Part shown: positions 46,601-55,600 of the stretch, piece after piece | Layout of the letters: every line of letters starts with the position of its first letter | Position numbering within the stretch: position 1 is the first letter of the stretch | Assembly: GCF_032062105.1 (NCBI RefSeq) | Contig: NW_026927214.1 | Location: forward strand, 1-64,000 | Length of the DNA stretch: 64,000 nucleotides | Source of the DNA: Saccostrea cucullata | Lineage: Eukaryota | Reading direction: 5' to 3' | Position numbers: made by a program

Positions 46601-49600
46601 TTTAAAATGGGAGTCAAATTTTAAGAGTGTTAAAAACATTTAGTAAAATAGAAACGCAATTAATTTTTGGTGATATTCAATTTTAGCCATCTCAGCACCC
46701 TAGGTAATAATTCCAAAATAAAATCTTTGCTAAAATTTCCACTTATATCGTATTTAAATGACTTTAATGTTACAGCAGTTAGAATAATGAATAACACAAC
46801 AACAGTCTTGACAACGGTACATTAATTCTCTACAGGCAAGCTTAAACAATGGAATTCTCTCTAACAGTGTCAGTACAGATAATATATACAGATATATGTA
46901 CAGATATATAAACAGATAGATAAACATTATGGTCAACTTCCACCACGGAACAATATTCCCCAATAATCATAAATAAGACAATAAAAAAAAATCTGCTACA
47001 AGACTCTTCATTTTACATTATTTTTCCATCACTTTTAAGCATCAAATTGACAATTATCTTTTAGATTAAGCCATAATCCGTGACTCTAGAATAATCAAAT
47101 GAATTTTCTTTTGATGAAAACAGAGAATGTAAAATGGAGGAAACATGAACAAGAATGGTAGACTATTTACATATTACACGTACAAAAGCATGTCTGAGGT
47201 TACACCACAAAAAAAAACAACACAATTGACCCGTTTTTTACTTCTTGCAAAGTATTTACAGCTGTACAAATAATGTCAATTAAAAAACAGAGTAAAAACT
47301 GAACTATTATAAGTAATCCTTTTTGTACTTTTCTTCTAAGATGTACTATTTTGACAAAATTAAAAACGGATAAAATCTAATAAACAATTTTATATCATTT
47401 TTATTAGGGAGAAAAAGATAAAAAATTGTTTTGACAATGACAATAAAATTCTATCTAAAAAAAAATAGAATGACTAGAGAACCACAAGTGACATTTTTTT
47501 ATTCCCTTAAAAAAATTATTTAATTAAAACCTGAATCAAATGCCATTGTTACTGAATAATTACAGAGATTCCAAAAAAGGTCTAGCCATTCATTACATGG
47601 TGAATGCTAATACAACGATTGGATGGTTATTGTAAATGAACCATAATTAATCGAACATTTATTGTTTTGGAAGCTAATACTTTGTTACACTCTAAGGAAT
47701 TCACAATGGGGAGGTCAAAGTATTCAGTCTCTACGTTTTCTGGTGAGAACTCATGCATGTTAATTGCAGGGTTGACCTTCATGTCACCGTACGGCCCCTT
47801 CAGGGCGATGAACTTAACCTGTATTGGGTTAGTGACCTTGCCCTTGAGAACCAGTTGATACGACATTGACCTTGAGACAGACTGGGTCGGTTTGTCGTTG
47901 TTGATTCTGGCTTTGATGACCCACTGATGGTTAAAGGCAGAGAACCTACTGGTCTCGTAGTACAGCTTGGTGATGAAATCATCAGTCCTGTAGGGCTTCA
48001 GCTGCAAATCTACAGATCACAGTTTGACTCAAGATTAAAACTCTAAAACAGCATTAGATATTTATTAATCAGTTTGAACATTATTTTTTTTTTAAGTTCA
48101 AACTTCAATTCATACTTTAAAGCTTAAGTCTTCTTGCTATAATTTCTTGAAAGTAAAAGATTATGAATGCTTTATCAAACCCAGTATACCATTAAATGTG
48201 ACTTTCTCATAGGAAAGTAAAAGATTACTGAATGCTTCATCAAATCCAGTATACCATTGAATGTGACTTTCTCGTAGGAGAGTAGATTGTAGAGATTGCT
48301 GTAGACTCTTAGCTCCTCCTCTCTCCTTTTATCCACCAGTGACAGAGCGTCCATGATGTCGTCTGCAGGCTTGCTCGGGTGGATACAGCTCTGCTCATGT
48401 CCTGCCAACTCATGAAAGGGTCCTTGCCAAGGACAACCAATTCTAGAGTATTTACAACATGTGGACCTAGAAATATAGCAACCATGAGATGAGCATGTGG
48501 AAGCAAAAGCTAAATATGTATTGTCTGTAAAAGAAAGGGGGTGTTCGATTAGTATACGTACCTGTCCTCCTTGTGTTACTCCAGTCTTAACAAATAATTA
48601 AAAACACCTGAAATAGCATTGGTTTTAACATGAGGTTAACTTTTCTGAAAAAATAACATATACATCCATCTCTGGAATAACAAAATCACCATACAGATTT
48701 CATAAATTGCATTAAACAGTGAATGTAAATCCAACGTGAGAATAGTGTGTCAAGTTTCACTGTATTCCAATAATCCTCTTCTGATTTTATTTCACAGTCT
48801 TGTGAGTTCATATTTCATCTCCAGATCATCACTATGGAAATTTTCTTCTATCTCCATTGAACTTGTATCACATTCGATGATTTGGAATTTGGAAAGCTTT
48901 CCTTGATTTTCAAAGAATCCTTGCTTAAGTTCACGCAATAACACTATACCTTACTTGGGTGCTCCTGGAAATGTCCTTGGTTTAAAACTACATCATTTAA
49001 TAAAAACAAAGCTAAGATAGGCAGGACAGAGATACAGACAGAAACACAATTAACTGTACATTAATGGGCTTAAGTTCCTTACTTAACTTCTTACATACAA
49101 ATGGGAATACCTTACTTAATATCTTACATACCCAGAAGGCCAATAAGCAAGGGTTTCTTGAAGCAGCATTGAAAATATTATTTCACCTGCCCCAGAATTT
49201 CAAAGGAACCCCAATTTAGCTTTACCTGGCCATGTCAAAAGGTCCCTTGCTTCAAACATTGTCCTTTTTTAATTATCAGGTCTAAAATCCACACAGCTCA
49301 CCAATATTCTTGAACATTATAAGTGCAGAAATGCTGCATTTCAGTTCTTGAGATAAACCTTTTGCAAGTTTGATTAGTAAATTATTTTTCAGGTTAAGTG
49401 TTTGAGAGTAAAAGACTCTTTGTCAGTTTGAAACATGAGAGCCAGCCTGGATGGATGTCTTCTAATGTAAAGAATAATTGTACCTGTGGATGTCCACAAG
49501 ACAGAGAAATTGCTTCTCTTTGAAAACTCAAATGTCTCTCCTTACTAGAGGGAACATTTCCTGCAAGTTTGATGACAACCTCTGGTTTTCTCCTAAAAAT

Positions 49601-52600: not shown

Positions 52601-55600
52601 TAATGAATTTTGATACGATTTCAATTTAATAATCCCGATAAATGGCTATAACCGGAACTACTTGAAATTTTCGAAACTGCTTGAATTCCCTTATATCTAA
52701 CGTACGAGAGTTTTATAATATAGTGTAACATTTTTAACAAAATGCCATTAGGGGTTGAAAAGGTAGGAAAAGGACTATTTGATTCAGTTTAGAAATCAAC
52801 TTTAAGTCCTACGCAAACAATGCAGCGAGCGTTTTCCTAGTTGCAATCCGGAACTACTTAAAACACTGTATGTTCCTTTTGCAATTTAATTTATTAATTT
52901 GCAGCATATGTTAATTTATTAACATGCTAAATGATTTGAATATTTCCTGCATCAAATGTAGCAAACGTACTTGATGCTGGCTTTTATATGCTCTGTAATT
53001 GAAGATTTCTGCCTTGTCTGTATGTTTGTTTGCAAAAACTTTCACCTTGGCCATAACTTATGAGTGGGTGGAGCTATGGCTTTCGTATTTCACGGGTGTA
53101 TTCCTTGTGACAAGAACTTTCACTGGGTACCACCAATTTGACCTATTGACCTTTGACCCACTTTTACAAAAAAAATTCTGAAATTTTATAGTGGCCATAA
53201 CTTTTGAATAAGCGATGCTAAGGCCTTCGTACTTCACATGTGTATTAACTGTGACAAGACCTTTCAGTGGGTATAAAATATTTGACCTTTTGACAGAGTT
53301 TCACCTTGTTTTCTAAAACTTCATATAACCAATTTTTTTTATGCTACCATAATCAAAGATTCAGGGATATATAGTTTTTGCCCTGTCCATCCATCTGTCT
53401 GCCAAAGCATTAACCTTGCTCATAAATTTTGAGTGGTTGCATGGGGCTATGGCTTTTATATTTCACAAGTATATTCCTTGTGACATGACCTTTCTCTCAG
53501 TACCACCAAATGTGACCTCTTGAACTTGAAGTTTGACCCAAATTTACAAAAAAAATCACTTTAACCTTGGCCATAACTTTTGAACTGTTGTTGCTAGGGC
53601 TTTCAGATATCACATTTGTATTCATTGTGACAAGATCTTTCAGTGGATTTAAATATTTTTGACTTTTTGGCCTTGACCTTAGAGTTTGACTTGCATTTGA
53701 GAAAAAGCAACATTTTCCATGTAAGGTGCCATAGCGGCCATCAGCATTTCACAAACACATCTTGTCTTCCTTGATAAAGCCTTCAATGTCTCTATATAAT
53801 AAAAACATTTTTTGGAGAAATTTATATTTTTATAAGTAACCAAGGCAACATCTTCAACAAAATCAAAAATAGTTAAAAAGAATTTAGTGCTGGGGATCGA
53901 ACGTGGGACCTCTGGCTTGCCAGTCCAGTGCTCTACCAATTGAGCTAAAGGGTTAATCCACTAGCCCAAGCAAGTAGGATGCCATGTATCTTACACTACT
54001 ACATTGCCCCCTCCAGAGAATGAGATGTCATCATCTCTTTTGGAGTGCCGACACCTGTGGGGCAAAGTTCTAGGGGCAATTACTCTCACCCTCCAGAGAA
54101 CACCCGGGTCCCTACATGGGCACCAAATGTAACAGAGACATTTTTGTGCCTCTGCTGGGGATCGAACCTGGGACCTAGCTGGCTTGCCAGTCCAGTGCTC
54201 TACCAATTGAGCTAAAGGGTTAACCCACTAGCCCAGGCTAGTAGGATGCCATGTATCTTACACTACTACAGTACTTGGTGTAGTCTAATTGTGTGCCAGT
54301 TCTACTGAAATCAGACCAAAATTGTACGAGTAGCATTTTTAAAAAAAGATAGTTTACAGCTGGACAGACACAGATAGAAGGATTGACAATGGAGACTTTA
54401 TTGCTGCATACTAGTAAGCAGAGCTATATAGAGAAGAGAAACTAAAAACTTAATGATGTACTGCTTTTAAAATCCTTAGGCTCATAGAAAAGAAATCATA
54501 ATATGGAATGTTTTATTACATGTATTTTTACTTTACTTCTCAATACATGATATGCACCATAACAGACTTCATTATGATTATAATCAATGACATGAAAAAA
54601 ATGTAGCAATTAAAAAAATAAGATTCTGACACTAGCAAAATTGGTCTTGTGTTAAGAATTATAGTGTTTCAGTTTTACAAATATTTTATGTAATTAAATA
54701 ACTCCTGAAACAGGTATAAATACAATGTACCAGTATATACAGGTACTATCCACATTTATTGCACTTTCCCATCTTGCAGCATGAATTAGATAAAATATAC
54801 ATAACAACAAAAAAATTCAAAATATTTGGACCATTTCTCACTTTACTGATCAGTACGACAATTTTAAAAAGACCTCAGGAAAAGATAATTTCCCAAAATC
54901 AAAGCATAATGCAGCCAGTCAACATTGGGAAATCCCAGCAAGGATCCATCGGAACCAAAAATAAGTCCTGCAGCAACGTAGGTCACCCCTGCTCCAAGTC
55001 CAAAGTAGTTCTTGTTTACAAAGCTTAGCGTTAAGATCACCAGCATTGAGAATCCACTAGCTGCCTGTGTCGCCACTTCTTTGGTTTTTGGTGGGAGAAA
55101 TGCAGCCACAACAACCACCGCTAAAAGGAAAATAGCTATTTTGTTTGCTAGCAGTGCTGATCCGTACCTAGCACAGAATTCCATGGCGATCAGTGGTACG
55201 CCAGCTCCTGCAGCTAACCATGACAGAAATTTGTGACACTTAAAAATAATTCCTCCCTCGGGATACGTCATCGCAAAACGGAAGATTCCAAAGAAGGCGG
55301 CTGTGGCCTGAATGGAGAGTCCGGCAGATGCCTTGATTTTGTCCACTTTGTACCACTCCCATGCAACAAAGGACGCCACCAAACACAAAAGGAGGTCAGA
55401 AAAAGAGGTGCTCAGCTGCCGCGCCATCTCCTTAAAATGATGGATAAAAAAAGTTGTGTAGAAAGTTTTATTAAATGTTAATTAAATGATGGATTAAAAA
55501 TAATGTATAAATTTAAGTATTATTATAAATCAGTCAAATGATAGGTTAAAAATACTGTAGAAAGTTTTGTCATATGTTAATCAAATGGTAGTTATGGAAA

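What the first reader, a model, noticed from the sequence alone, without database searches (positions are those of the whole stretch)
47627..55427. TMEM276 directly upstream of ZFTRAF1/CYHR1 on the same strand, as in human
Seen: the two CDSs are 3.3 kb apart, co-oriented, separated mostly by transposons. Known (from memory): in human the two genes are adjacent on 8q24.3, were long annotated as one CYHR1 locus, and have a TMEM276-ZFTRAF1 readthrough. Inference: a gene pair kept since the protostome-deuterostome split, suggesting shared regulation, readthrough or functional coupling between an uncharacterised membrane protein and a RING/TRAF zinc-finger protein.
Basis: partly seen in the sequence, partly recalled or inferred. 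Interest (0 to 1): 0.7.

Follow-up and report, generated by a model that had tools for sequence, protein, structure and literature searches.

The report
Membrane-protein gene beside RING/TRAF ligase gene
Two ordinary-looking animal genes, one for a small membrane protein and one for a RING/TRAF zinc-finger protein, lie 3.3 kb apart on the same strand, but whether this is the ancient TMEM276-ZFTRAF1 pair could not be tested here.

Summary
The layout is confirmed. On the minus strand a 187-aa ORF (55427-54864) lies 3333 nt upstream of a four-exon, 347-codon gene (51530-47627). Of the spacer, 2080 of 3333 nt are repeats.

The downstream gene has C3HC4 RING spacing across exons 1/2 and two TRAF-type Cys/His fingers. 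Exon-by-exon Pfam and PDB hits are all below threshold. The joined model was not searched.

The 187-aa ORF looks like a real multi-pass membrane protein:
- Only 1 of 152 control ORFs reaches its codon-usage score.
- The ESM Atlas holds it letter for letter.
- Its nearest Atlas cluster is eukaryotic and unnamed, score 0.95.

It matches no Pfam family. Its identity as TMEM276, and adjacency in other phyla, were not testable, because no eukaryotic protein or genome collection was open. The name may be circular.

Sequence signals favour two separate transcription units. AATAAA lies 104 nt after the upstream stop. A non-depleted CpG patch with TGACGTCA, ATTGG and CACGTG lies just before the downstream ATG.

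If orthology holds, this is one more ancient microsyntenic pair, a known kind. Interest is modest.

The parts
54864..55427 (-). An acceptor-like ttttaag| lies 3 nt before the ATG.
   Evidence: Searches give sequence and translation; hydrophobic segments; 3 of 200 simulated windows reach this ORF length; codon usage 0.252 bits/codon in frame against -0.34 and -0.22 out of frame; 1 of 152 control ORFs scores as high; the Atlas holds it letter for letter, and the nearest cluster is eukaryotic at 0.95; all-helical model, pLDDT 48.7.
51321..51530 (-). ZFTRAF1-like gene, coding exon 1 (70 codons): a Lys/Glu-rich N-terminus and the first Cys pair of the RING (C-x2-C).
   Evidence: Pfam gives only a sub-threshold chance-level hit. 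Codon usage is not distinctive: 94 of 152 controls score as high.
50211..50449 (-). Coding exon 2: the rest of the C3HC4 RING and the first TRAF-type finger (C-x2-C-x11-H-x4-C).
   Evidence: Pfam zf-RING_4 E 0.0029, RING_XB3-XBAT31 0.015, Sina_RING 0.027, all below cut-off. PDB SIAH1 E 0.096, TRIM69 0.1. GC is 0.565.
48255..48466 (-). Coding exon 3: the second TRAF-type finger (C-x6-C-x11-H-x3-C) and a charged helical linker.
   Evidence: Pfam Sina_ZnF E 0.064, below cut-off. PDB gives 0 hits. Codon usage exceeds 152 of 152 controls.
47627..48009 (-). Coding exon 4 (stop included): a C-terminal domain of 126 whole codons with no known family, predicted all-beta.
   Evidence: Pfam gives 0 families at E up to 10. 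PDB gives 0 hits. The AF2 single-sequence model has 8 strands and pLDDT 52.4. Codon usage exceeds 152 of 152 controls.
51531..52000 (-). Promoter-like patch directly upstream of the ZFTRAF1-like ATG. TGACGTCA lies at -65, ATTGG at -77 and CACGTG at -88. CpG o/e is 1.55 against 0.64 for the whole window.
   Evidence: These are motif and composition readings only, with no transcript data.
54755..54760 (-). First AATAAA after the membrane-protein stop, 104 nt downstream. Further copies lie at 347 and 462 nt.
51866..52871 (.). MITE-like element bounded by 27-nt inverted repeats, 93% complementary, flanked by TA on both sides as read by eye.
   Evidence: (5 matches to the repeat end against 0.08 expected).
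53048..53740 (.). Copies of a dispersed repeat family of roughly 100-150 nt that also occurs at 42.3-44.9 kb.
   Evidence: families D2, D3, D4 and D9.
53890..54270 (-). Two tRNA-derived SINE-like heads 267 nt apart, 97% identical over 92 nt.
   Evidence: D15; tRNA model 24.2 and 25.5 bits, gathering score 29.
57596..57597 (-). It is present and consensus-like, but nothing else supports it.
   Evidence: The CpG profile is instead non-depleted further upstream, at 58501-59000 (o/e 1.23).

Best explanation
The stretch holds two separate protein-coding genes in tandem on the minus strand.

The upstream gene has one coding exon. It encodes a 187-aa protein with six or seven hydrophobic helices and very short loops, so it is a small integral membrane protein.

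The downstream gene starts 3.3 kb further on and has four coding exons. It encodes a 347-aa soluble protein with three parts:
- an N-terminal C3HC4 RING finger;
- two TRAF-type zinc fingers;
- a family-less, probably all-beta C-terminal domain.

That is the build of a RING E3 ubiquitin ligase of the TRAF/SIAH type, in which the RING recruits an E2 enzyme and the C-terminal domain binds partners. It fits what I recall of ZFTRAF1/CYHR1.

Each gene carries its own signals. Poly(A) signals follow the first gene. A non-depleted CpG patch with CRE, CCAAT and E-box motifs lies directly before the ATG of the second. I therefore read them as independently transcribed neighbours. Their spacer has tolerated at least three kinds of mobile-element insertion.

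Shown: the layout, the exon structure, the Cys/His spacing, the repeats and the motifs.

Inferred: that the membrane protein is the TMEM276 orthologue (my estimate is about 0.7, resting on recall of the human locus); that the adjacency is inherited microsynteny; and the ligase function.
For: - Layout and splice phases.
- RING spacing C-x2-C-x9-C-x3-H-x2-C-x2-C-x16-C-x2-C across exons 1/2, and two C-x(2,6)-C-x11-H-x(3,4)-C fingers, read from the exon translations.
- Weak but consistent Pfam and PDB hits to RING and Sina/SIAH models only: zf-RING_4 E 0.0029, Sina_RING 0.027, Sina_ZnF 0.064; SIAH1 0.096.
- No MATH, Sina-TRAF or WD40 match in exon 4, which sets it apart from TRAF1-7 and SIAH.
- Coding signal for the 187-aa ORF and for exons 3 and 4.
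- Atlas exact match and a eukaryotic nearest cluster at 0.95, sharing 223 of 256 features.
- No second copy of either gene in the window.
- Separate signals: AATAAA at +104, +347 and +462 after the first stop; TGACGTCA, ATTGG and CACGTG within 88 nt of the second ATG.
- CpG o/e is 1.55 at 51501-52000, against 0.17-0.25 at 53001-55000.
- There is no pyrimidine-rich acceptor before the exon-1 ATG.
Against: - None of the 5 protein pieces reached a Pfam curated cut-off.
- No PDB relative was significant.
- Exons 1 and 2 have no distinctive codon usage.
- Neither orthology was tested against a named reference.
- The nearest Atlas clusters are unnamed, and they include bacterial DUF6962 clusters. 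The ORF may therefore belong to a broader family of small membrane proteins.
- The promoter and poly(A) reading rests on short motifs and on CpG counts of 3 to 23 per 500 nt.
- The CpG-depleted stretch from 53 to 58 kb would also fit transcription running on past the first gene.
Confidence: 0.55

Rival explanations
1. One shared transcription unit. A promoter and 5' exon upstream of the membrane-protein CDS serve both genes, by readthrough or alternative splicing, and that dependence is what has kept the pair together.
For: - Same strand, only 3333 nt apart, with no intervening gene.
- I recall a human TMEM276-ZFTRAF1 readthrough locus and the former single CYHR1 locus.
- A pig CNV paper lists TMEM276 under the TRAF zinc-finger InterPro entry IPR001293 together with ZFTRAF1 (passages). 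That suggests entangled annotation in mammals.
- A consensus-like donor lies at 57597.
- CpG depletion is continuous from 58 kb down to 53 kb.
Against: - The downstream gene has its own promoter-like patch.
- Three AATAAA signals follow the first stop.
- There is no good acceptor before the exon-1 ATG.
- Splicing into exon 2 would drop the start codon and the first RING Cys pair.
- The one strong donor-like site I checked inside the upstream CDS (tag|gtacgg at 55168/55167) is in phase 2, while the exon-2 acceptor is in phase 0. This was read, and other sites were not checked.
Confidence: 0.2
2. Chance neighbours. The 187-aa ORF is a real gene, but it is not the TMEM276 orthologue, so nothing ancient is conserved here.
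For: - No Pfam family at E up to 10.
- Atlas names are only 'hypothetical protein'. DUF4791 is carried by 16% of the members of one similar cluster, and bacterial DUF6962 clusters score 0.94.
Against: A small multi-pass membrane protein directly upstream of, and co-oriented with, a ZFTRAF1-like gene is what I recall for human. Small multi-pass membrane proteins are, by my rough estimate, a few per cent of genes, so coincidence is not the likeliest reading.
Confidence: 0.25
3. The 187-aa ORF is not a gene at all, only a long open frame.
For: - 3 of 200 simulated windows contain an ORF this long.
- No family match.
- Low-confidence fold.
Against: - In-frame codon usage is matched by only 1 of 152 control ORFs, and both other frames score negative.
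- GC rises to 0.43-0.49 over the ORF.
- A public protein record is identical, and similar eukaryotic clusters of about 195-205 aa exist.
Confidence: 0.04

Closest known systems
Human TMEM276 / ZFTRAF1 (formerly CYHR1) locus at 8q24.3, with the TMEM276-ZFTRAF1 readthrough (recalled, not checked by any search)
   Same: A small membrane-protein gene lies directly upstream of, and co-oriented with, a RING plus TRAF-zinc-finger gene of about 350 codons.
   Different: No sequence comparison with the human genes was made. Here the downstream gene shows its own promoter-like patch, the membrane protein sits in a single coding exon, and no readthrough is documented.
Conserved ancient microsyntenic pairs (Irimia et al. 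2012, PMC3514665; abstract and passages of section 7 read)
   Same: Two unrelated genes tightly linked, possibly across phyla. That paper reports nearly 600 such pairs.
   Different: In that paper 54.8% of human pairs are head-to-head, and co-directional pairs keep their orientation in only 15-25% of cases, whereas this pair is co-directional. CYHR1 does not occur together with 'microsynteny' in any paper of the library. The paper's supplementary pair list could not be seen.
SIAH and TRAF RING E3 ligases
   Same: The domain order is N-terminal RING, then Cys/His zinc fingers, then a C-terminal partner-binding domain. The only weak database hits are to Sina/SIAH and RING models.
   Different: There is no MATH or Sina-TRAF match in the C-terminal exon. 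The fold search of the low-confidence model gave nothing significant: 0 hits at E<=0.001 and best TM 0.36.
Pfam DUF4791 (eukaryotic) and DUF6962 (bacterial) small membrane proteins
   Same: Atlas feature search places the 187-aa protein near clusters carrying these families, at scores of 0.94 with 215 of 256 features shared.
   Different: hmmscan finds neither family at E up to 10. DUF4791 is carried by only 16% of that cluster's members.

Membership tests
ZFTRAF1 / CYHR1 | N-terminal C3HC4 RING finger | tested here: met
   The spacing C-x2-C-x9-C-x3-H-x2-C-x2-C-x16-C-x2-C was read across exons 1 and 2 and lies within the recalled RING consensus ranges. Pfam RING models hit exon 2 only below cut-off (E 0.0029-0.027), because the finger is split between two exons and the joined model was not searched.
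ZFTRAF1 / CYHR1 | TRAF-type zinc finger(s) (InterPro IPR001293; Pfam zf-TRAF) | tested here: inconclusive
   Two motifs fit by eye, C-x2-C-x11-H-x4-C and C-x6-C-x11-H-x3-C. No zf-TRAF hit was obtained exon by exon. Sina_ZnF scored E 0.064.
ZFTRAF1 / CYHR1 | Reciprocal best match to named ZFTRAF1 proteins | not testable with these tools
   No eukaryotic protein collection was open. The PDB holds no significant relative.
ZFTRAF1 / CYHR1 | C-terminal domain that is not MATH, Sina or WD40, which distinguishes it from TRAF1-7 and SIAH (recalled) | tested here: met
   Exon 4 (126 aa) hits 0 Pfam families at E up to 10 and has 0 PDB sequence hits.
TMEM276 | Sequence similarity to vertebrate TMEM276 | not testable with these tools
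Pfam gave 0 hits. Atlas names were uninformative.
TMEM276 | Small multi-pass membrane protein (recalled) | tested here: met
   187 aa. The model has 8 helices at low confidence.
TMEM276 | Lies directly upstream of ZFTRAF1 on the same strand (recalled for human) | tested here: met
   This is the observation itself, so it cannot count as independent evidence of orthology.
Ancient conserved microsyntenic pair | Adjacency of the two orthologues in several distant lineages | not testable with these tools
   No eukaryotic genome collection was open, and the supplements of PMC3514665 are closed. The phylum of the window was not established.
Readthrough / conjoined or bicistronic locus | A transcript spanning both genes | not testable with these tools
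   No RNA data.
Readthrough / conjoined or bicistronic locus | The downstream gene lacks its own promoter, and the upstream gene lacks its own 3' end signal | tested here: not met
   A promoter-like CpG patch with CRE, CCAAT and E-box motifs lies before exon 1, and AATAAA lies 104 nt after the upstream stop. This is motif-level evidence only.
Pfam DUF4791 / DUF6962 | Match to the family HMM | tested here: not met
   hmmscan at E up to 10 lists neither family. The only resemblance is by Atlas features.

The most novel reading that the evidence does not exclude
The small membrane protein and the RING/TRAF ligase form an ancient two-gene module that predates the bilaterian split. A promoter upstream of the membrane-protein CDS can drive both genes, and the membrane protein serves as the membrane anchor or adaptor of the ligase. 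In that case selection on joint expression, not inertia, has kept them adjacent and co-oriented from this animal to human.
Probability: 0.1. Interest if true: 0.6.

Novelty: new member of a known kind. Interest (0 to 1): 0.3.

Why it matters
TMEM276 is almost unstudied. The term occurs in 3 papers of the library. One of these is a misprint for another gene, and none addresses function.

ZFTRAF1 has few reports. A 2026 paper says so and cites a paper whose truncated title links biallelic loss-of-function variants to a neurodevelopmental condition (passages).

If the pair is truly conserved from an invertebrate to human in the same order and orientation, it would give a first functional lead for TMEM276: look at it together with the ligase. 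It would also add a co-directional case to the known ancient microsyntenic pairs.

If it is only neutral retention, or a mis-named neighbour, it is an ordinary piece of genome annotation.

Tried and rejected
- **Structure of the 187-aa protein.** The single-sequence AlphaFold2 model had pLDDT 48.7. Its PDB fold search gave 0 hits at E<=0.001 and a best TM of 0.28. This is meaningless at that confidence.
- **Structure of exon 4.** The model had pLDDT 52.4. Its fold search gave 0 hits at E<=0.001. SPOP MATH chains (TM 0.28-0.36) appeared among many unrelated beta folds, so it was not used.
- **Complex prediction.** Complex prediction of the exon-4 domain with the 187-aa protein returned the verdict 'no answer', score 0.00 in both runs, and the controls were not run. 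This counts neither for nor against binding.
- **Bacterial and archaeal genomes.** A genome-contig scan with the 187-aa protein matched a peptide pattern in 38 stretches, and none was confirmed by tblastn.
- **Second Atlas search.** Restricted to unnamed clusters, it returned only bacterial 'hypothetical protein' clusters at 0.91-0.92.
- **PDB sequence searches.**
  - Exon 3: 0 hits.
  - Exon 4: 0 hits.
  - The 187-aa protein: one chance hit at E 0.83.
  - Exon 2: 13 sequences at E<=1, the best being aspartate carbamoyltransferase regulatory chains at 0.08.
  - Exon 1: not searched in the PDB.
- **Bacterial-type promoter and terminator scan.** 34 promoter-like sites were found against 35.5 expected. 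This is irrelevant for a eukaryote.
- **Wider synteny.**
  - The only other Pfam-identifiable genes among 10 long ORFs scanned are a beta-lactamase-like protein and a GT11 fucosyltransferase. I do not recall either as a neighbour of human ZFTRAF1.
  - ORFs in 38-47.6 kb and 57.8-64 kb were only read by eye, apart from three that were included.
- **Literature.**
  - 'CYHR1' plus 'microsynteny' returned 0 papers.
  - A plant preprint with 17 'CYHr1' mentions concerns cycloheximide resistance and is unrelated.
  - The broad readthrough, bicistronic and synteny search listed no CYHR1 paper among the 15 shown.
- **Joined model.** The four-exon model was neither searched nor folded. Only single exons were used.

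
Full report
**What is there**

The window is AT-rich eukaryotic DNA (GC 0.34) with no N. I did not take it for human, and I used no human sequence.

On the minus strand an ATG at 55427 opens a 187-codon frame that ends with TAA at 54866-54864. A pyrimidine-rich ttttaag| sits 3 nt before the ATG. The CDS is therefore probably one coding exon preceded by a 5'-UTR intron.

A second gene begins 3333 nt downstream on the same strand. Reading and tabulating gives four coding exons with canonical GT..AG borders and matching phases:

| Exon | Coordinates | Length |
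|---|---|---|
| 1 | 51530-51321 | 210 nt |
| 2 | 50449-50211 | 239 nt |
| 3 | 48466-48255 | 212 nt |
| 4 | 48009-47627 | 383 nt, with TAA |

The total is 1044 nt, or 347 codons plus stop. The finding's coordinates are exactly this gene's stop and the upstream ATG. The joined model was never built, searched or folded.

**Is it more than chance?**

- An ATG-to-stop ORF of 187 aa or more arose in 3 of 200 simulated 64-kb windows.
- I trained a codon table on the two long Pfam-confirmed ORFs of the window. The 187-aa CDS scores 0.252 bits per codon in frame, and -0.34 and -0.22 in the other two frames.
- Only 1 of 152 control ORFs (60 codons or more, outside the genes) scores as high as the 187-aa CDS.
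- Exons 3 and 4 beat all 152 control ORFs.
- Exons 1 and 2 do not stand out: 94 and 81 of 152 control ORFs score as high.
- GC rises over each exon.
- Neither gene has a second copy in the window.
- The ESM Atlas holds the 187-aa protein letter for letter. Its nearest cluster is a eukaryotic 'hypothetical protein' cluster of about 195 aa (score 0.95, 223 of 256 features shared, arthropods commonest).

**The spacer**

Repeats cover 2080 of the 3333 nt:
- A 1006-nt element is bounded by 27-nt inverted repeats (51866-52871). By eye it has TA on both flanks and ends beginning CAGTG, which I recall as typical of Tc1/mariner-type MITEs.
- Copies of a dispersed family also seen at 42.3-44.9 kb lie at 53048-53740.
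- Two tRNA-derived SINE-like heads lie at 53890-54270. Their Rfam tRNA scores of 24.2 and 25.5 bits are below the gathering score of 29.

None of the 10 spacer ORFs scanned reached a Pfam cut-off.

**What the downstream gene encodes**

- The exon translations show the spacing C-x2-C-x9-C-x3-H-x2-C-x2-C-x16-C-x2-C across exons 1 and 2. That is a C3HC4 RING by the recalled consensus.
- Two further motifs follow: C-x2-C-x11-H-x4-C at the end of exon 2 and C-x6-C-x11-H-x3-C in exon 3. Both have TRAF-type spacing.
- Next comes a charged helical linker, then a 126-aa C-terminal part.
- Exon by exon, none of the 4 pieces reached a Pfam cut-off. The weak hits are nevertheless to RING and Sina models: zf-RING_4 E 0.0029, Sina_RING 0.027, Sina_ZnF 0.064.
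- The PDB gives SIAH1 at E 0.096 and TRIM69 at 0.1, among equally weak unrelated zinc proteins.
- Exon 4 matches nothing in Pfam at E up to 10, and nothing in the PDB. It is therefore not a MATH or Sina-type domain by sequence.
- The single-sequence model of exon 4 is all-beta, but its confidence is low (pLDDT 52.4).

This architecture and size fit what I recall of ZFTRAF1/CYHR1. Direct orthology was not tested.

**What the upstream ORF encodes**

It is a very hydrophobic protein with six or seven helices and short loops. It has no Pfam family and no PDB relative.

By Atlas features it lies near two kinds of cluster:
- eukaryotic clusters, in one of which 16% of members carry DUF4791;
- bacterial DUF6962 clusters, at score 0.94.

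One preprint passage says DUF4791 matches a Wntless-like transmembrane domain.

None of this tests the name TMEM276. The term occurs in only 3 papers of the library:
- one is a misprint for another gene;
- one lists it as a differentially expressed gene;
- one, on pig CNVs, lists TMEM276 and ZFTRAF1 together under the TRAF zinc-finger InterPro entry.

The bacterial and archaeal genome scan found no relative. The orthology claim, the phylum of the window and the adjacency survey all stay unchecked. I note that the name could have been given because of the position, which would be circular.

**How it most likely works**

Sequence signals favour two transcription units:
- AATAAA lies 104, 347 and 462 nt after the upstream stop.
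- Within 88 nt before the downstream ATG lie TGACGTCA, ATTGG and CACGTG.
- CpG o/e at 51501-52000 is 1.55, against 0.64 for the whole window and 0.17-0.25 at 53001-55000.
- From what I recall of gene-body methylation in invertebrates, such a non-depleted patch marks an unmethylated promoter.
- No good acceptor precedes the exon-1 ATG.
- Splicing from an upstream exon into exon 2 would lose the start codon and the first RING cysteines.

However, the next non-depleted CpG patch lies further upstream, at 58501-59000 (o/e 1.23), where a palindromic CRE-like motif also sits.

I therefore read the pair as independently transcribed neighbours (confidence 0.55). A shared unit or readthrough remains a live rival (0.2). 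There are no transcript data.

**Comparison with what is known**

Irimia et al. 2012 report nearly 600 ancient linked pairs. They attribute many to co-regulation or to regulatory blocks. In that paper 54.8% of human pairs are head-to-head, and pairs in other orientations keep their orientation in only 15-25% of cases (abstract and section 7 passages).

A co-directional pair conserved in orientation would thus be a less common member of a known kind. No paper in the library pairs CYHR1 with microsynteny. The supplementary pair lists, which might name it, could not be seen.

**Verdict**

- The interpretation cannot be judged with the tools open here.
- The sequence-level signals lean against obligatory readthrough.
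- Interest is modest (0.3), and novelty is at most a new member of a known kind.

Noticed in passing
window 48149-48284: A 65-nt tandem duplication (2.1 copies, 91% matches) covers the 3' end of exon 3 and its donor. The second copy offers a second donor (atg|gtatac). By eye, this donor would be in frame with a second acceptor (tttgcag|) 7 nt inside exon 4. Together they would replace 3 codons with 22 extra codons.
   Followed up: partly
window 30740-30812 (+): A tRNA-like sequence scores 51.8 bits with the Rfam tRNA model. ARAGORN reads it with a four-base anticodon in an enlarged loop and names no amino acid. It shares box-like motifs and a downstream 'gttacatttg' with the SINE heads in the spacer, so it may be a SINE head or a pseudogene.
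   Followed up: partly
window 6296-8449 (-): An uninterrupted 718-codon frame has a Beta-lactamase (PF00144) match at E 3.4e-32 over residues 68-390. The C-terminal 330 residues or so match no family.
   Followed up: partly
window 22664-23743 (-): A single-exon 360-codon frame matches glycosyltransferase family 11, a fucosyltransferase family, at E 2e-44.
   Followed up: partly
window 1961-2938 and 16713-17329: There are three tandem arrays: 85-nt units at 1961-2640, 135-nt units at 2534-2938, and units of about 166 nt (4 copies) at 16713-17329.
   Followed up: no
window 32500-37850: This is a dense nest of direct and inverted repeats, with arms of 74-225 nt at 80-95% identity. It looks like a pile-up of one or two mobile-element families.
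   Followed up: no
window 8337-8451 and 59756-59870: A 115-nt inverted repeat (90%) links the 5' end of the beta-lactamase-like frame with an ORF at 59687-59959. Both translate to a shared motif (…KLLTNKL.KQEYQQ…FYGRYN…), which suggests a dispersed coding repeat.
   Followed up: no
window 58500-59000 (-): This patch is not CpG-depleted (o/e 1.23) and holds a palindromic CRE-like motif (ctgacgtc…gcgtcag, near 58640-58665).
   Followed up: partly
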